Virus genome (UHGV): UHGV-1808406
DNA length: 15,909 nucleotides
Source: a virus
Direction: 5' to 3' (one strand)
Shown: positions 2,632 through 14,672 of the stretch, one piece after another
Layout of the letters: each line of letters starts with the position of its first letter
How positions within the stretch are numbered: position 1 is the stretch's first letter
Translations under genes and position numbers: made by a program
Notes under the pieces: model-generated
What the model was told of the DNA's origin: nothing
The model's database searches: none
The model's input: the letters and a program-made list of their open reading frames with translations, nothing else

Positions 2632-3645
2632 TCATTTATAATAACTTCGGTGGTTTTCAAGATAGACCTTCTCAAGGAAGTCATCCCAGAAACTCATGTC
2701 TACTTTTTGCTGCATACCGTTCTTAGAAGCTTCAGTAGATGCTGCTTCTACTTGATCGACCACATCTTCCAAAAACTCTTGAACCGTTTTAAATGGATGT
2801 TTACCCAACTTCACGTCGAGAATAAATGGAGCGTCTTGAAGTGGATAAATCAAGTCGCCAGTTTTGTAAATTTCCAATAGTTGAAGTCCACCACGACAAG
2901 CATGACTCAGAGCTTTCCAGTCAATACCTTCATTGGCTTCAGCCTTACGAGCACGTTCACCATATTCAGCATCTAATTTGTTCAGTGACTGCTTAAGCTC
3001 AATAAGAGAAAGCGTTGTCTGATATTTACGACCCAACACAGTGTAGAACGTTTGTGGGCCTGTTTTCTCATGATTATGGAACACCCATTCACAGAATTCG
3101 TTTTCTGGAAGACGATGCTTAATATCTTCAACTTTAGTGCGACGCTGCTTAATAGAACCATCTTCTTGGTAATCAACCCATTGCTCAGGGATTTGATTAA
3201 CTACTTTCAATACATCACGTAATGCAGCCAAACGAGAACCCTTGACACCGTATTTAGAAGCTTGCTTACGGACATATCCTAAATATGATTTCATGTTAGT
3301 CGTATAAAAACGAGAACGGTTGTCTTGAATAAACTTCCACACATCAGGCAAATCAGATTTAACCACTAGTTCAGGTGGAGTGTGAAGCATATCTAATGCT
3401 ACAGTTTCACCATCTGCTGCTAATTTAAAGAAATATTTAAGACTGTATAGTTCATGGTCAATATCATCTTTAGTGTTTTTAGATGATGTGTTGTTAGTGT
3501 TTTTACTCATGTGCTCTTTGACATTTCCGATAAGAATATCGCGAGCAGGAGGAACAAAGATTTCTTTAAAATCTACATCAGATTCTGGGGTAGAAGTTCC
3601 ATAAAGATGACTACCAAAATAGCTTTTCATTACTGTTTTCATCAT
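2632..3645 (-). CDS. Pol-beta-superfamily nucleotidyltransferase, 337 aa, substrate unknown
   Basis: N-terminal motif G11-S12-x10-D23-V-D25 (GSHLYGTSTPESDVDF) fits the hG[GS]x9-13Dh[DE] signature. A further acidic cluster DDIDHE at 60-65 is a candidate third carboxylate. The ATG overlaps the upstream stop as ATGA. Confidence 0.7.
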   Translation of the reverse strand: MMKTVMKSYFGSHLYGTSTPESDVDFKEIFVPPARDILIGNVKEHMSKNTNNTSSKNTKDDIDHELYSLKYFFKLAADGETVALDMLHTPPELVVKSDLPDVWKFIQDNRSRFYTTNMKSYLGYVRKQASKYGVKGSRLAALRDVLKVVNQIPEQWVDYQEDGSIKQRRTKVEDIKHRLPENEFCEWVFHNHEKTGPQTFYTVLGRKYQTTLSLIELKQSLNKLDAEYGERARKAEANEGIDWKALSHACRGGLQLLEIYKTGDLIYPLQDAPFILDVKLGKHPFKTVQEFLEDVVDQVEAASTEASKNGMQQKVDMSFWDDFLEKVYLENHRSYYK

Positions 3646-4115
3646 TCAGCCTTATATTCAATAACAGGACATACTTTAGCTTTACGAGCTTTTAAAAATT
3701 CAACGATAATCGATTTCTTGGGTTGAATAGGAGGTAAACCTTTATACGCCCTATCAATATTTTCTATGTGTAAAGCATAATCCTTTTTCCATTTATAATC
3801 TTTATATTTTTCATGCAAATGTGCAGGAATAACAAATGAACCAATAATAAGTAAAACAAGCAAAATGGCAAGTATAAATGCTGATGGAATAAGAGTCCAT
3901 AAACTACCAAAAATAAGCCATTTCTGTATGATTTCTGCGCAGATGATAGTTAGACCTGCGAGTATAGTACATCCGAAAAAAGAAACGAAAAATGTAGGGA
4001 TAACAATAGACCAAAAGTATGCACACAGTGTCTTAGGTCGTTTCCATTCGTCGTTAAACAGTTTGAATAATTTATAGTGCCAAGAGTTTTCATTAATAAC
4101 CATAATTATAATCAT
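3642..4115 (-). CDS. Small membrane protein, 157 aa, 2-3 predicted transmembrane helices
   Basis: Hydrophobic segments FWSIVIPTFFVSFFGCTILAGLTIICAEI and LWTLIPSAFILAILLVLLIIGSFVI. ATGA overlaps with both neighbouring genes indicate translational coupling. Confidence 0.6.
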   Translation of the reverse strand: MIIIMVINENSWHYKLFKLFNDEWKRPKTLCAYFWSIVIPTFFVSFFGCTILAGLTIICAEIIQKWLIFGSLWTLIPSAFILAILLVLLIIGSFVIPAHLHEKYKDYKWKKDYALHIENIDRAYKGLPPIQPKKSIIVEFLKARKAKVCPVIEYKAE

Positions 4116-6190: not shown

Positions 6191-6577
6191 TTATTCGAGG
6201 GAAAGAAGATACTTACTCTGGTAAAACATTCCAGTAATATCATCTATCGTGCTTTGGATGGCTGGAGGCATTTCTTTATAAATGCTGTTAGATTGGTCTA
6301 GTATGCGATCAATCATTTTAATTGTGTCGGTAGGAAGTTTACTGGCATCTGGAATTGAAGGTGTGTATTTTCTACCAGAATACCCCAAATACTGCTCACC
6401 AAATTTATCAATCAAATTTGGCAACTCGGAAAAAATAAAATCGTATGCTTTGTGTCTAGCATAACTTTTAGTTTCAAAATGCGCAGAATGAAAATAAGCT
6501 TGTGCAGCCATTAATAAACCTAAGTATTCATCTGCCTTTGAAGGTTTTCCACTTTGTGAAAAGTCGCTGAATTTCAT
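6191..6577 (-). CDS. Hypothetical protein, 128 aa, at the position of T4 rI.1
   Basis: ATGA overlap with the rI stop; synteny with T4. No motif recognised. Confidence 0.6.
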
Positions 6578-6867
6578 TCAGTCTCCAATTTAATTTTCAT
6601 AATTCTAGCGTATGATTGTGCCATCTCCGCGCCTCGCTCTATACATTCAAAATCAGAAGAGCACGGGTCATTTTTATAGGTCGTTCTCATAAAACTATAG
6701 AATTGTTCAGACGATTCTACGCTTTTATTTTCAAAAAGCATATAAACGTGCCTAATACCAGATTCCATAAATTTATCAAAATGAGGATCGACATTCGCTT
6801 CAATCGATGGAGATAAAACAAATGACAATCCTAGCATGGCAAATAGTGCCGTTGCTTTTAAGGCCAT
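6574..6867 (-). CDS. rI: Lysis-inhibition regulator RI (antiholin), 97 aa
   Basis: Near-identical to the T4 RI sequence as I recall it, with the N-terminal signal-anchor-release-like hydrophobic segment ALFAMLGLSFVLSPSIEA. Flanked by tk as in T4. Confidence 0.85.
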   Translation of the reverse strand: MALKATALFAMLGLSFVLSPSIEANVDPHFDKFMESGIRHVYMLFENKSVESSEQFYSFMRTTYKNDPCSSDFECIERGAEMAQSYARIMKIKLETE

Positions 6868-6879
6868 AAAGGCCTCCTA

Positions 6880-7092
6880 TCATTTTTGTCCTGTATTTAC
6901 TTTATGCCGATGCACGGCCTTAACTTTATCAAGGTATTTTTCAAAATTTCGCAATCTAGTATAGTCTGCCGGAGATTGGTTGAGTGATACTTCTCGACGC
7001 AAAGCTGAAATGATATTTCCAACTTCCCTACGAATTTCATCTAATTGAAGCACAGTAAGATTGCGAAGTTGCTTTTCAGTTAATTGTAGCAT
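6880..7092 (-). CDS. Hypothetical protein, 70 aa, at the position of T4 rI.-1
   Basis: Sits between tk and rI as in T4; a TATAAATA late-promoter motif lies 25 nt upstream. Confidence 0.6.
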
Positions 7093-7117: not shown

Positions 7118-7125
7118 TATTTATA
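7118..7125 (-). promoter_or_regulatory. Candidate T4 late promoter (TATAAATA) upstream of the rI.-1/rI genes
   Basis: Exact TATAAATA on the minus strand, 25 nt upstream of the ATG at 7092. Confidence 0.45.
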
Positions 7126-11494: not shown

Positions 11495-11824
11495 TCAATT
11501 AGAAAATAAATTTATCCAAGACTGTTCTTTAATTAAAAATGGCTCAGAATCATATGCCATTAAACTTTGCGTAATTAATCCTTTAAAAGGTCCATCAATA
11601 AATTCCATGGTAAAATATGGAATTTTATTCATTAGCCGTGCATTAGGAGCAGTGCACAAAACTCTGCATCCTTTGAATACGCCTTTTTGTAATTTGTATT
11701 GCTTAGGATAAAATTCACTTAAAATGTTATTTTTTGCCAAAATTTCAAAATGATTCACCAATTTATTTTTAATAGTTTTTGGCGAAAAATAAAGATATTC
11801 GAAAAGCTGAGTGTCTGTCATCAT
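11495..11824 (-). CDS. Hypothetical protein, 109 aa
   Basis: ATGA overlap with the upstream gene; no motif recognised. Confidence 0.5.
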   Translation of the reverse strand: MMTDTQLFEYLYFSPKTIKNKLVNHFEILAKNNILSEFYPKQYKLQKGVFKGCRVLCTAPNARLMNKIPYFTMEFIDGPFKGLITQSLMAYDSEPFLIKEQSWINLFSN

Positions 11825-12348
11825 TGCATTCCAATTACGAAAAACTGTGGACGAGTAATACCACCAATGCAGCAGTGTTGCACAGTTTCAATATGAATAT
11901 CGTAAATTTTATCCATATCAGGAGATTTAACAGGCTCATCGATTATATACAAAATTCGAGAAAGCGATAAACCTCTGAACTTGCTGCCTCTATTACCGAT
12001 AAAACTACGGACAGAATCAGTAAATAAGCGGAATCGAATATCATCGCTAGAATAACGAGAAAATTCTTTTTTAATGTGTCCCGCAGAAATTTTAGCGTAA
12101 GCTGAAGTATTAGAAAGAACAATAACTGTTCCACCGTCATACAGCCAATTAGCAGCAAAGTTAGTCACAGCAGTTGATTTACCAGATTGACGTCCACCAT
12201 CTAGTCGAAGTGTACAATATTCTTTAAATAAATGTGACGAATAAGGTACATAAAATCCACTATTACAAATTTCTTCTACTCTAGCATCAGAATGGTGTGT
12301 AAAAGCATTCATCAGGGATAGATAAGGACCAGTTAAAAATGTTCTCAT
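11821..12348 (-). CDS. Small P-loop NTPase-like protein, 175 aa
   Basis: Walker A-like GGRQSGKST and Walker B-like ILYIIDEP. Confidence 0.55.
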   Translation of the reverse strand: MRTFLTGPYLSLMNAFTHHSDARVEEICNSGFYVPYSSHLFKEYCTLRLDGGRQSGKSTAVTNFAANWLYDGGTVIVLSNTSAYAKISAGHIKKEFSRYSSDDIRFRLFTDSVRSFIGNRGSKFRGLSLSRILYIIDEPVKSPDMDKIYDIHIETVQHCCIGGITRPQFFVIGMQ

Positions 12349-12501
12349 TTTATTCTCTCTAAATTTGGGTCATTCCATGGCGCATGAATTGTCCATTTCT
12401 GTATTTCCCCATTACCGCACTTGGGCTCGACCTTATTACAGGTTGGCGGGAATCCCTCATAGAATCATGAGGTCCAGCTTGTTCCCATATTTCTTATTTG
12501 C

Positions 12502-12975
12502 TTATTTGAATGATTTGACGTACTGAATAGAGCCTTTGCTATTCACGAAAGCGATTTTACCATTTTTATTATACATGGTAGCAGTACGCTGATAGCCATA
12601 AGTTTGCTTACCAGATTGATAACCAACTAATGCAAAATTATCTTCACCCATTTTATTCTGTTTAGCGCGAATACGTTCATGACCATGCGCCATAAGAACC
12701 TTAGCATCACCAGTTGCAATGGATCTACGAGTTTTTTCATCTTCAACTGTATTAACAAAGTCGTCAAATGAATCAAATTTAGCATGGGATTTATTATACA
12801 GTTTTCCATCTACTGCATAATTGTATCCTTGTACATCCATCTCAACTTCTGTACCATCATCTAATACAGCAGTAATTTTCTGTCCTTTTTTAAATTTCAA
12901 AAGATCAGTAAAAGATTCAGCAATAATTTGAGAATTAATAGCTGCTTCAGTGATAAATTCTTGATATGTTTTCAT
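12502..12975 (-). CDS. Capsid-targeted internal protein (IP family) with unrecognised cargo domain, 157 aa
   Basis: N-terminal MKTYQEFITEA matches the T4 internal-protein capsid-targeting sequence (cleaved by the prohead protease after the Glu of (L/I)xE). Its 5' junction is identical to that of the other IP gene over 27 nt. K-rich body. Confidence 0.7.
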   Translation of the reverse strand: MKTYQEFITEAAINSQIIAESFTDLLKFKKGQKITAVLDDGTEVEMDVQGYNYAVDGKLYNKSHAKFDSFDDFVNTVEDEKTRRSIATGDAKVLMAHGHERIRAKQNKMGEDNFALVGYQSGKQTYGYQRTATMYNKNGKIAFVNSKGSIQYVKSFK

Positions 12976-12984
12976 GTGTTTCCT

Positions 12985-13401
12985 TTAAATGTAAATAGTT
13001 TTACCGTAGTATTTATACCAGTGTGGCTTCATTAAAATTTTTTCATCGAGTCGTTGTTGACTCAACTTAATAGCTGATTTGCATGGATTATAATCATTTT
13101 TCCATTCTGCTGGAATATCGCTGATGTCAGGAACTTCAGTATCTTTTATACTAAACCCGCGTTTTAAGCATTCCGTTATAATGTCTGATTGACGCTTTCG
13201 CAAAAATTCTAACTTATCGTAAAAGAACGTGACATGACCAGAACCTAAAATAAACTCGGAAGATATTTTAAAATCTTTAACCCATTTACCATTTGCCACA
13301 TGTTTACGAACTATACCAAAAACGCGTGGCAATTCACGGTATTCTGCGATTAAATGTTGATCAGCAAGTTCAGATACTAAAGTCAAATTAATACGAGTCA
13401 T
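12985..13401 (-). CDS. denV: Endonuclease V (pyrimidine-dimer DNA glycosylase/AP lyase), 138 aa
   Basis: Begins [28 protein letters not shown] as in T4 DenV and ends WYKYYGK; same length as T4 DenV. Confidence 0.92.
13010..13017 (-). promoter_or_regulatory. Candidate T4 late promoter (TATAAATA) inside the 3' end of denV
   Basis: Exact TATAAATA on the minus strand, 34 nt upstream of the ATG at 12975 of the internal-protein gene. Confidence 0.45.
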
Positions 13402-13427
13402 TTTTAATCTCCTGTAGTTGATAGGTT

Positions 13428-13456
13428 TATAATATCATGTCTACAGAAGATGTAAA
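13428..13456 (-). promoter_or_regulatory. T4-type early promoter upstream of denV: -35 TTTACA, -10 TATTAT/ATTATA
   Basis: Minus strand reads gttgTTTACAtcttctgtagacatgatATTATAaacc, followed by an AGGAG Shine-Dalgarno and the denV ATG. The exact -10 register is ambiguous (16-19 bp spacer). Confidence 0.55.
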
Positions 13457-13494
13457 CAACTTTTTATCTATAAGAGGTCTAAGTGTAGGCTTTA

Positions 13495-14070
13495 TTAATT
13501 ACCACGAGCTGCATTAGCAACGGCGTAAGCATACTGAACATTAGCGTCTTTAAACGTACCTTTAGAGGTATCTAGTTCTGCCTTAAAGCCGCCTTTAGTC
13601 ATAACATCGGCGAATTCTTTACGGAAAGCCATTGCATCAAGACCTTTCCATGTAGATTTGTGCTTGGAGAATTCAAGACCAGCATAGTTGACAGCCTTAG
13701 CTAATTTATTATCAATAACCCATTTACCAGCTTTAGGCACAAACACCGGGCCTTTCTGTTTAGAGAATAGTTTTAAATTCCAGCGACGAAGGTCACCGTC
13801 AGCTTTAACAAAAGCTGCGTCCAAGTTACTAGCAACAACATCTTGAATATGGCCAAATTTAAGCCCATCAACTTCAATATTTAAATCGGTACGCCAGCGA
13901 AGTCCTTCCCAAGCGAAAGATTTAAAGTCGGAAGCTTTTGTAGCTAAGTATCGTTCAATAGGAGCTGTTTTAGGGTCAAAGCCGTTTCCTCGGTAAGTCC
14001 ACTCATCTTTATTAATGCCTTTGGCCTTTTCCACAGAAGCTTCAGCGATAAATTCTTTATATGTTTTCAT
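13495..14070 (-). CDS. ipIII: Internal protein III-like capsid-targeted basic protein, 191 aa
   Basis: N-terminal capsid-targeting sequence MKTYKEFIAEA, basic K-rich composition, a size close to T4 IPIII and a position next to e. Confidence 0.7.
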   Translation of the reverse strand: MKTYKEFIAEASVEKAKGINKDEWTYRGNGFDPKTAPIERYLATKASDFKSFAWEGLRWRTDLNIEVDGLKFGHIQDVVASNLDAAFVKADGDLRRWNLKLFSKQKGPVFVPKAGKWVIDNKLAKAVNYAGLEFSKHKSTWKGLDAMAFRKEFADVMTKGGFKAELDTSKGTFKDANVQYAYAVANAARGN

Positions 14071-14107
14071 GTGTTTCCTTTAAATATTTTAATTAGTAAC
14101 TGTGAAT

Positions 14108-14136
14108 ATACTATCACAGTTCTAGAAGAAAGTAAA
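14108..14136 (-). promoter_or_regulatory. T4-type early promoter between e and the IPIII-like gene: -35 GTTTAC, 17-bp spacer, -10 TAGTAT
   Basis: Minus strand reads gttgTTTACtttcttctagaactgtgaTAGTATattcac. Confidence 0.6.
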
Positions 14137-14141
14137 CAACT

Positions 14142-14672
<531 letters not shown>

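What the first reader, a model, noticed from the sequence alone, without database searches (positions are those of the whole stretch)
12502..14070. Two internal-protein cassettes with an identical 5' junction flanking denV, one with novel cargo
Both genes begin with the capsid-targeting sequence MKTY(K/Q)EFI(A/T)EA and share an identical 27-nt stretch across the Shine-Dalgarno and start (atatgttttcatgtgtttcctttaaat). The bodies are unrelated: a 191-aa basic IPIII-like protein, and a 157-aa protein I cannot assign. Internal proteins are injected with the DNA, and T4 IPI inhibits the GmrSD restriction enzyme, so the unassigned protein is a prime candidate for an injected anti-restriction or anti-defence effector. 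The conserved junction is consistent with cassette shuffling by recombination. The order e, IP, denV, IP also differs from the T4 order as I recall it (e, ipIII, ipII, denV).
Basis: partly seen in the sequence, partly recalled or inferred. Interest (0 to 1): 0.65.

Follow-up and report, generated by a model that had tools for sequence, protein, structure and literature searches.

The report
Known T-even internal-protein genes ipIII and ip4
The two genes are the already described T-even phage head "internal proteins" IpIII and Ip4, which flank the DNA-repair gene denV in a locus long known to be shuffled, so the sequence observation is correct but the "novel cargo" is a 1994-named protein identical to the one in classical phage T2.

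Summary
Two minus-strand genes (13495-14070 and 12502-12975) start with the T4 capsid-targeting sequence. They share a 47-nt junction at 96% identity, 27 nt of it exact, where shuffles give none. The bodies are unrelated.

The 191-aa protein is IpIII, 92% identical to T4 IpIII. The 157-aa protein is not novel. It is Ip4/IpIV: Pfam DUF7412 (E 6e-96) and PHROG 3155 "internal virion protein". It is 100% identical to a phage T2 protein and 99% to UniProt Q38388 "Ip4 [phage K3]". It occurs in 471 phage records.

The shared junction precedes the other CTS-bearing genes at this locus in close T4 relatives, including T4 ipIII and ipII. Shuffling at the IP loci was reported in 1994 and later tied to promoter/stem-loop (PeSL) elements. 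Breakpoints here fall at the IP junction or at early promoters.

The order e|ipIII|denV|ip4|vs.8 is in no INPHARED record but recurs in two metagenome contigs, so it is a new permutation of known parts.

Ip4's function is unknown. T4 Ip1, Ip2 and Ip3 each block a distinct GmrSD type IV restriction enzyme, but ip4-10 gave no reproducible hit on a GmrSD panel (Silas 2025). An injected anti-defence role is plausible and untested. Interest is low.

The parts
14142..14636 (-). e (soluble lysozyme), the upstream boundary gene of the internal-protein locus
   Evidence: Pfam Phage_lysozyme E 1.5e-13. 95-98% amino-acid identity to e of T4, Shfl2 and BW-1.
14086..14141 (-). e-to-ipIII spacer with an early-promoter-like element (GTTTAC ... 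TAGTAT). The same element lies directly in front of denV in phages that lack ipIII (BW-1 type).
   Evidence: Alignment of regions upstream of denV. BW-1 homology runs 14700-14095 and resumes at 13404. Repeat family D4, GTAAACAACTTT.
14039..14085 (-). [quoted passage not shown]
   Evidence: 47-nt direct repeat at 96% identity. Exact 27-mer. The same junction precedes ipIII, ipII and ip4 in T4, VIPECOOM01, Shfl2 and PST.
13495..14070 (-). ipIII, internal head protein III (191 aa), with CTS MKTYKEFIAE|A
   Evidence: 92% identity to T4 IpIII over 192 columns. PHROG 5341 'internal virion protein' E 4.9e-116. The identical protein in metagenome contigs is tagged PF26861 Phage_T4_IpIII.
13402..13494 (-). 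ipIII-to-denV spacer with the denV early promoter (TTTACA, 16-nt spacer, TATTAT at 13456-13429). It joins the ipIII 3' flank to the denV promoter with no ipII in between.
   Evidence: Promoter scan. Alignment with T4, WG01, JS98 and Entb45. This junction is found in 15 records, those inspected being Dhakavirus (JS98, WG01) or Kanagawavirus (Entb_45), at 84-93% identity.
12985..13401 (-). denV, endonuclease V (pyrimidine-dimer DNA glycosylase), 138 aa. Its last two codons and stop codon lie inside the ip4 junction repeat.
   Evidence: Pfam Pyr_excise E 2.1e-13. 99% amino-acid identity to BW-1 denV and 77% to T4 denV. Sequence of the 3' end.
13010..13017 (-). TATAAATA, an exact match to the T4 late-promoter consensus (from my own knowledge of T4 late promoters). 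It lies inside the denV coding sequence, 35 nt upstream of the ip4 start, and is a candidate late promoter for ip4.
   Evidence: Pattern search: 4 matches in the window, all on the minus strand, two of them just upstream of e. The motif is not conserved in every denV-ip4 genome. Function is inferred.
12944..12990 (-). IP 5' junction, copy 2: Shine-Dalgarno, ATG, and the CTS codons of ip4, overlapping the denV stop codon
12502..12975 (-). ip4 (ipIV), internal head protein 4, 157 aa, with CTS MKTYQEFITE|A and a second conserved I-A-E|S site at residue 20
   Evidence: Pfam DUF7412 E 5.7e-96, full length. PHROG 3155. 100% identical to the phage T2 protein. Q38388 'Ip4 [phage K3]' at 99%. E10 and E20 are invariant in 14 homologues.
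12349..12501 (-). ip4-to-vs.8 spacer. It is homologous to the sequence that follows denV in phages without ip4, so it marks the right-hand boundary of the ip4 insertion (about 11 nt after the ip4 stop).
   Evidence: T4 and VIPECOOM01 homology resumes at 12490/12491. No significant fold (z -0.24). No Rfam family.
11821..12348 (-). vs.8, the downstream boundary gene of the locus (P-loop protein of unknown function)
   Evidence: PHROG 1488 E 2.7e-78. 85-95% amino-acid identity to vs.8 of Tequatrovirus relatives.

Best explanation
The region is the e-to-vs.8 internal-protein (IP) locus of a Tequatrovirus (T4/T2-like phage). It carries two known IP genes, ipIII and ip4, on either side of denV.

Shown here:
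- Each gene starts with the 10-residue capsid-targeting sequence (CTS). The residues that experiments in T4 tie to targeting (Y4, F7) and to cleavage (I8, E10) are all kept.
- The shared 5' junction (Shine-Dalgarno, ATG, CTS codons) is a family-wide feature of IP genes, not something special to this pair.

Inferred from T4 biology:
- Both proteins are built into the prohead scaffolding core through the CTS.
- The prohead protease gp21 trims them after Glu10. For Ip4, a second cut after the invariant Glu20 is possible.
- They stay in the DNA-filled head in many copies and are injected with the DNA.

Function:
- IpIII most likely does what T4 Ip3 does, which is to block a two-gene GmrS/GmrSD type IV restriction system.
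- Ip4 has no known target. My best guess, at about 50%, is that it is a stoichiometric inhibitor of a host defence that attacks incoming glucosyl-hmC DNA. That would be a type IV enzyme not yet sampled, or another early-acting system.

Gene order: it arose by homologous recombination at two kinds of short conserved patches, the IP 5' junction and the early-promoter (PeSL-type) elements. The window is one permutation of a known modular set.
For: Identity:
- IpIII is 92% identical to T4 IpIII.
- Ip4 matches DUF7412 at E 5.7e-96 and PHROG 3155.
- Ip4 is 100% identical to the T2 protein and 99% to K3 Ip4, Q38388.
- It is found in 471 phage records, 291 of them at 99% or higher.

CTS:
- Y4, F7, I8 and E10 are present in both proteins.
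- Their roles are described in PMC9026906.
- E10 and E20 are invariant across 14 Ip4 homologues, each with I, L or M two residues before.

Junction: the same ...tatttaaaggaaaca(c/t)ATGAAAAC.TAT precedes ipIII, ipII and ip4 in T4, VIPECOOM01, Shfl2 and PST, and ip4 in BW-1 and ime09.

Modularity, seen as different orders in different phages:
- T4: e|ipIII|ipII|denV.
- Shfl2 and PST: e|ipIII|ip4.
- BW-1: e|denV|ip4.
- ime09: e|93-aa IP|denV|ip4.
- T2: e|ip4.
- JS98, WG01 and Entb45: CTS-bearing genes on both sides of denV.

Breakpoints lie at the IP junction (13003/12990) or at the promoter -35 GTTTAC.

The window's exact order recurs in two independent metagenome contigs.

Anti-defence precedent:
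- Ip1, Ip2 and Ip3 each inhibit one GmrSD variant (PMC12373910).
- The field already regards IPs as a diverse set of defence proteins that share only the CTS (PMC3012670).
Against: - Nothing here shows that Ip4 is in virions, is processed, or is injected. That rests on the CTS and on the analogy with T4.
- For the anti-defence role, Silas et al. tested ip4-10 against the newly found active GmrSD systems of their synthesised panel. They found no reproducible inhibition (Supplementary Fig. 9).
- T2 carries this exact Ip4 and is still restricted by GmrSD-ECOR21 and GmrSD-ECOR17.
- Ip4 is almost invariant within Tequatrovirus (at least 99% identity in 291 records). That is not the rapid sequence divergence expected of an arms-race protein, although presence/absence variation is strong.
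- The mature protein is basic (pI about 9.2), so a DNA-binding or packing role is also possible.
Confidence: 0.85

Rival explanations
1. Ip4 is a packaged head protein whose main role is structural. As a basic protein it would neutralise DNA charge or help core or head assembly, as reported for IpIII mutants, and it would have no anti-defence activity.
For: - The mature protein is basic: pI 9.1-9.3, with 22 Lys+Arg against 17-18 Asp+Glu.
- IPIII mutants slow head assembly and lower burst size, and lysines of IPs contact DNA phosphates (PMC9026906; PMC3012670).
- No GmrSD target was found for ip4-10.
- The sequence is nearly invariant in 291 records.
Against: - The gene is dispensable at the population level. 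T4 and many other Tequatrovirus phages lack it.
- All three T4 IPs that have been tested turned out to be specific nuclease inhibitors.
- Presence/absence swapping in a hyperplastic locus fits an accessory host-range function better than a structural one.
Confidence: 0.2
2. Ip4 is an injected inhibitor of a defence outside the GmrSD family, for example another modification-dependent nuclease or an early abortive-infection sensor.
For: - The result on the GmrSD panel was negative.
- The family is narrow and orphan, with no fold relative.
- Ip4 homologues at 60-80% identity occur in T4-like phages of Klebsiella, Salmonella, Serratia and Raoultella. The target may therefore be widespread in Enterobacterales.
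Against: - There is no direct evidence.
- The only precedents (Ip1, Ip2, Ip3) all target GmrSD-type enzymes. The authors of that work expect the rest of the locus to do the same.
- That paper calls GmrSD diversity vast, and only 15 groups were synthesised.
Confidence: 0.2
3. The shared 27/47-nt stretch is a chance match or an assembly artefact, and the 157-aa ORF is not a real gene.
For: None beyond the short length of the repeat.
Against: - No match appeared in 200 shuffles.
- The same junction and ORF are found in hundreds of independently sequenced phages.
- The ORF matches a Pfam family over its full length.
- The identical arrangement is present in two metagenome assemblies.
Confidence: 0.01

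Closest known systems
Ip4 / IpIV of T-even phages (UniProt Q38388, phage K3; phage T2 BBF63289; Pfam DUF7412; PHROG 3155)
   Same: It is the same protein: 100% identical to the T2 protein and 99% to K3 Ip4, with a full-length DUF7412 match. It sits in the same locus next to vs.8, with the same CTS and the same 5' junction.
   Different: Nothing differs in the protein. Only the neighbours differ: here ipIII and denV both precede it. That order was not seen in the 50,697-record phage collection, but it is present in two metagenome contigs.
T4 IpIII (Ip3), internal head protein III, inhibitor of the GmrS1/GmrSD2 system of E. coli ECOR17
   Same: 92% identity over the full length. Same position directly downstream of e, same CTS and same junction.
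   Different: Residue 5 of the CTS is Lys instead of Gln, and there is a one-residue deletion. Whether this allele inhibits the same GmrSD variant is untested.
T4 IPI* (Ip1), inhibitor of GmrSD from E. coli CT596, and T4 IpII (Ip2), inhibitor of GmrSD/BrxU from ECOR21
   Same: Same delivery logic: N-terminal CTS, gp21 processing, and co-injection with DNA. The genes lie in the same kind of hyperplastic IP locus.
PeSL (promoter-early stem-loop) mediated modular shuffling in T4-type phages (Arbiol et al. 2010, PMC2839356; Comeau et al. 2014, PMC4122927; first noted at the IP loci by Repoila et al. 1994)
   Same: Insertion and deletion breakpoints relative to BW-1 and T4 fall at early-promoter -35 elements (GTTTAC). 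The papers explicitly name the IP loci as an early example.
   Different: A second kind of homology patch is used here: the IP Shine-Dalgarno/ATG/CTS junction itself, about 47-60 nt at 92-95% identity. In this allele lineage it extends into the last codons of denV.

Membership tests
T-even internal head proteins (CTS-bearing IPs) | N-terminal capsid-targeting sequence MKTYQEFIxE, with Y4 and F7 (targeting) and I8 and E10 (gp21 processing) | tested here: met
   Both ORFs have MKTY(K/Q)EFI(A/T)E|A. The roles of these residues come from PMC9026906.
T-even internal head proteins (CTS-bearing IPs) | Gene lies in one of the two variable IP loci (e-denV-vs.8, or near ipI) and has the conserved 5' junction | tested here: met
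   Both genes lie between e and vs.8. The junction is shared with T4 ipIII and ipII.
T-even internal head proteins (CTS-bearing IPs) | Protein is present in the mature head, processed by gp21, and injected with the DNA | not testable with these tools
   This needs virion mass spectrometry and N-terminal mapping. No paper reporting it for Ip4 was found.
Ip4 / DUF7412 (PF24183) | Full-length match above the Pfam gathering score | tested here: met
   319.4 bits against a cut-off of 27, covering residues 1-157 of a 158-position model. All 14 database homologues carry PF24183.
IpIII (T4 gene ipIII; PHROG 5341; PF26861) | Full-length sequence similarity to T4 IpIII | tested here: met
   92% identity over 192 columns. 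PHROG 5341 E 4.9e-116. The local Pfam copy gave no hit, but the precomputed tag on the identical protein is PF26861.
GmrSD (type IV restriction) inhibitors, as shown for T4 Ip1, Ip2 and Ip3 | Sequence or fold similarity of Ip4 to a proven inhibitor (IPI*, Ip2, Ip3) | tested here: not met
   Similarity to IpIII is limited to residues 1-13. No PDB relative by sequence or by fold. The proven inhibitors are not similar to each other either, so this feature has little diagnostic power.
GmrSD (type IV restriction) inhibitors, as shown for T4 Ip1, Ip2 and Ip3 | Demonstrated rescue of a sensitive phage from a GmrSD enzyme | not testable with these tools
   The published panel test of ip4-10 found no reproducible interaction. 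For the window's IpIII allele, activity is inferred from the 92% identity to T4 Ip3.
PeSL-mediated shuffling modules | Rearrangement breakpoints coincide with early-promoter (TTTACW-N17-TAYWAT) elements, with or without a stem-loop | tested here: met
   BW-1 and T4 breakpoints lie at the GTTTAC of the e-downstream and denV promoters. The denV promoter was found by the scan. A stem-loop is clear in the T4 ipIII-ipII spacer but weak in the window's spacers.

The most novel reading that the evidence does not exclude
Ip4 is carried unchanged by phage T2 and about 300 other Tequatrovirus genomes, and it never occurs together with ipII. It may neutralise a host defence outside the GmrSD variants tested so far. 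That could be an unsampled type IV clade or a different early-acting system. Either would extend the injected-inhibitor repertoire of T-even phages and would explain why ip4 and ipII behave as alternatives. A minor addition: the window's order e|ipIII|denV|ip4 may be the full arrangement from which the T2, Shfl2 and BW-1 orders derive by single deletions at the junction or promoter patches.
Probability: 0.3. Interest if true: 0.5.

Novelty: already known. Interest (0 to 1): 0.15.

Why it matters
It matters little as a discovery. Both proteins, the targeting sequence, the conserved junction and the shuffling of this locus are already in the literature and in the family databases.

The practical value is corrective. 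The "unassigned" protein is Ip4, and it is identical in phage T2, so any experiment on it can be done in a classical, tractable phage.

The open question is what Ip4 targets. That question is real, but the field already recognises it, and one published GmrSD panel test was negative.

Two by-products may help people who study IP-locus evolution:
- ipII and ip4 are mutually exclusive across about 500 genomes.
- The ip4 junction has absorbed the denV stop codon, and a consensus late-promoter motif sits inside denV.

Tried and rejected
- **Structured RNA or remnant gene in the 153-nt ip4-vs.8 spacer (12349-12501).** The RNA fold z-score is -0.24 and the whole window has no Rfam hit. The spacer is simply the normal denV-to-vs.8 region of relatives.
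- **Remote homologues.** A profile search of 1.84 billion representatives found only 4 clusters below 1e-10, one being the Serratia phage SP1 homologue and three starting MNF(E/K)(Q/D)FLNES or similar, which I read as a variant targeting sequence. This gave no functional lead.
- **Source genome or more copies of the ipIII-denV joint.** An exact 28-mer search in IMG/VR gave 0 hits. Searching IMG/VR with Ip4 gave only 3 loci.
- **Literature on Ip4.** Full-text searches for Ip4 with 'internal head protein' or 'T4-like' gave 0 papers. Repoila 1994 (PMC395341) is not held, so its content is cited only through later papers.
- **Does TATAAATA inside denV track the presence of ip4?** Only partly: ime09 has ip4 but TACAAGTA. 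I treat it as a lead, not a finding.
- **Is the 157-aa protein a misplaced T4 IPII?** Rejected. It has a different length and sequence, and ipII and ip4 do not co-occur.
Full report
**What is in the sequence**

All genes in this part of the window lie on the minus strand. In transcription order they are:
- e lysozyme (14142-14636);
- a 191-aa ORF (13495-14070);
- denV (12985-13401);
- a 157-aa ORF (12502-12975);
- vs.8 (11821-12348).

The two ORFs of the finding begin MKTYKEFIAEA and MKTYQEFITEA. A 47-nt direct repeat covers the Shine-Dalgarno sequence, the ATG and the first 10 to 11 codons of each gene (12944-12990 and 14039-14085, 96% identity). It never occurred in 200 dinucleotide-preserving shuffles, even with three mismatches allowed. 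Beyond residue 13 the two proteins are unrelated.

**Where the window comes from**

The 15.9-kb window matches 435 phage records over at least 80% of its length. The best matches are about 96% identical, and those listed are Escherichia coliphages such as ECML-134. The close relatives whose records I opened (Shfl2, PST, ime09, BW-1, T4, T2) are all classified in Tequatrovirus. I therefore take the window to be a T4/T2-like coliphage segment.

**Identity of the two proteins**

The 191-aa protein is IpIII:
- 92% identity to T4 IpIII over the full length;
- PHROG 5341 'internal virion protein', E 4.9e-116.

The 157-aa protein is not unassignable. The evidence:
- It matches Pfam DUF7412 end to end (E 5.7e-96) and PHROG 3155 'internal virion protein' (E 6e-102).
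- It is annotated Ip4 or ipIV in ime09, PST, PP01 and JK1, and wV7 lists a 'putative Ip4 internal head protein'.
- Its only structural match among viral proteins is UniProt Q38388, 'Ip4 [Enterobacteria phage K3]', at 99% identity.
- It is 100% identical to a protein of classical phage T2, which is mis-annotated there as a 'valyl tRNA synthetase modifier'.

tblastn finds it in 471 phage records. In 291 of them identity is at least 99%. In 160 it is 60-80%, and those sampled are T4-like phages of Klebsiella, Salmonella and Raoultella. Outside T4-like phages the family hardly exists. There are 14 clusters at 90% identity. Only four representatives fall below 1e-10 among 1.84 billion proteins, and three of them start with what looks like a variant targeting sequence, MNF(E/K)(Q/D)FLNES or similar.

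**The junction is a family feature**

The motif ...tatttaaaggaaaca(c/t)ATGAAAAC.TAT precedes ipIII and ipII in T4 and VIPECOOM01. It precedes ipIII and ip4 in Shfl2 and PST, and ip4 in BW-1 and ime09. More diverged versions precede CTS-bearing genes in JS98, WG01 and Entb_45.

The residues that T4 experiments link to head targeting (4 and 7) and to cleavage by the prohead protease (8 and 10) are kept in both window proteins (PMC9026906). In 14 Ip4 homologues both Glu10 and Glu20 are invariant, each with I, L or M two residues before. IP propeptides are reported to be 10-19 residues long, so a second cut after Glu20 is a reasonable inference. The mature protein would be about 15.5-16.5 kDa with pI about 9.2.

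**The locus is modular and the window is one permutation**

Gene orders seen in the records inspected:

| Phage(s) | Order |
|---|---|
| T4, VIPECOOM01 | e, ipIII, ipII, denV, vs.8 |
| Shfl2, PST (ECML-134 also lacks denV) | e, ipIII, ip4, vs.8 |
| BW-1 | e, denV, ip4, vs.8 |
| ime09 | e, 93-aa IP, denV, ip4 |
| T2 | e, ip4 |
| VEc74 | e, 105-aa ORF, 166-aa ORF, ip4 |
| JS98, WG01, Entb45 | CTS-bearing genes on both sides of denV |

- The denV-to-ip4 joint of the window is present in 165 records.
- The ipIII-to-denV joint is found in 15 records at 84-93% identity. Those I inspected are Dhakavirus (JS98, WG01) or Kanagawavirus (Entb_45).
- No record in the 50,697-record collection covers 80% of 12300-14300.
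- The exact order e, IpIII, denV, DUF7412, vs.8, with an identical IpIII, is present in two independent metagenome contigs.

The order is therefore a real and recurrent new combination of known parts.

**How the rearrangements happened**

Pairwise comparisons place every breakpoint at one of two kinds of short conserved patch.
- Against BW-1, homology runs to 14095 and resumes at 13404. BW-1 lacks a block that begins after the e-downstream early promoter and ends just before the denV start. Its denV is driven by the e-downstream promoter.
- Against T4, the window's ipIII-denV spacer equals the T4 ipIII 3' flank fused, at the -35 GTTTAC, to the T4 denV promoter. This is as expected for a promoter-to-promoter deletion of ipII.
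- Against Shfl2 and VIPECOOM01, homology breaks just after ipIII (13488) and resumes at 13003, inside the IP junction.
- Against T4 and VIPECOOM01, the ip4 cassette (about 13003-12491) sits exactly at the denV stop codon. In this denV allele lineage the last codons (…I-Y-I-stop, att tac att taa) are part of the junction sequence.

This matches the PeSL model of Arbiol et al. 2010 and Comeau et al. 2014. Both papers credit Repoila et al. 1994 with the first description of such sequences at the IP loci, and with the idea that shuffling the IP palette changes host range.

**Function**

- T4 Ip1 inhibits GmrSD of strain CT596.
- Silas et al. 2025 showed that Ip2 inhibits the GmrSD/BrxU of ECOR21 and Ip3 the two-gene GmrS1/GmrSD2 of ECOR17, with no cross-protection.
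- The window's IpIII, at 92% identity, most likely shares the Ip3 activity. This is an inference.
- The same paper tested ip4-10 against the five newly found active GmrSD systems of its synthesised panel and found no reproducible inhibition (Supplementary Fig. 9).
- T2 carries this exact Ip4 and is restricted by the ECOR21 and ECOR17 enzymes.
- My structure prediction (pLDDT 76.7) gave no informative relative in PDB or BFVD.

Packaging, processing and injection are inferred from the targeting sequence and from T4 precedent. An anti-defence role is plausible, at about 50%, and is the field's own expectation. The target is unknown. A structural or DNA-binding role for this basic protein cannot be excluded.

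**Verdict**

It is wrong that the cargo is novel or unassignable. Everything essential has been described since 1994 and is captured by Pfam and PHROG families. The exact gene order is a minor new permutation. Novelty: already known. Interest: low.

Noticed in passing
window 13010-13017 (minus strand), inside denV: There is an exact TATAAATA, the T4 late-promoter consensus, in the denV codons W-Y-K-Y-Y, 35 nt upstream of the ip4 start. BW-1 and an IMG/VR contig (both denV-ip4) also have it. ime09 (denV-ip4) has TACAAGTA, VIPECOOM01 has TATAAGTA and T4 has TACAAATA; the last two have no ip4. The other minus-strand matches are at 14650-14657 and 14663-14670, just upstream of e, and at 7118-7125.
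   Followed up: partly
phage collection; relates to window 12502-12975: ipII and ip4 never occur in the same phage record. A chimeric ipII-body plus ip4-body query hit 499 records in 499 places, and none covered both halves. They sit on opposite sides of denV yet behave as alternatives. This may only reflect tight linkage.
   Followed up: partly
window 12349-12501: The 153-nt ip4-vs.8 spacer is homologous to the region after denV in T4, including the 5' part of T4's annotated 219-aa vs.8 ORF. The T4 vs.8 start may therefore be over-extended. Its 3' 90 nt are about 75% similar to the ipIII-ipII/ip4 spacer of VIPECOOM01 and Shfl2. There is no fold signal and no Rfam hit.
   Followed up: partly
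window 11821-12348 (vs.8): Vs.8 has a Walker-A-like GGRQSGKST. It shows weak similarity to the terminase large-subunit ATPase (PHROG_2 E 2.9e-6; Pfam Terminase_6N E 0.021) and to AAA domains. Some records label it 'endoribonuclease'.
   Followed up: no
L013 (phage T2, AP018813) 6430-6903; also SH7, KX828711: Ip4 is mis-annotated in public records. It is 'valyl tRNA synthetase modifier' in T2, 'internal head protein II' in SH7, and 'hypothetical protein' in many others.
   Followed up: yes
L013 (phage T2) 5941-7485: The T2 record has e followed directly by ip4, with no denV at this locus. Only a short 57-aa ORF is annotated where vs.8 would lie.
   Followed up: no
L012 (IMGVR_UViG_2974754850_000001) 3409-3887; proteins P0014 and P0020: Some Ip4 copies look broken. 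One locus has a 35-aa CTS-bearing ORF followed by an out-of-frame Ip4 body. A Klebsiella phage protein has a divergent, longer C-terminal tail. A 39-aa truncated version also exists.
   Followed up: no
window 12502-12512: The ip4 stop region reads caaataag-caaataag, a short tandem duplication, just before homology to the denV-downstream sequence of ip4-less phages resumes. It could be chance or a recombination scar.
   Followed up: no
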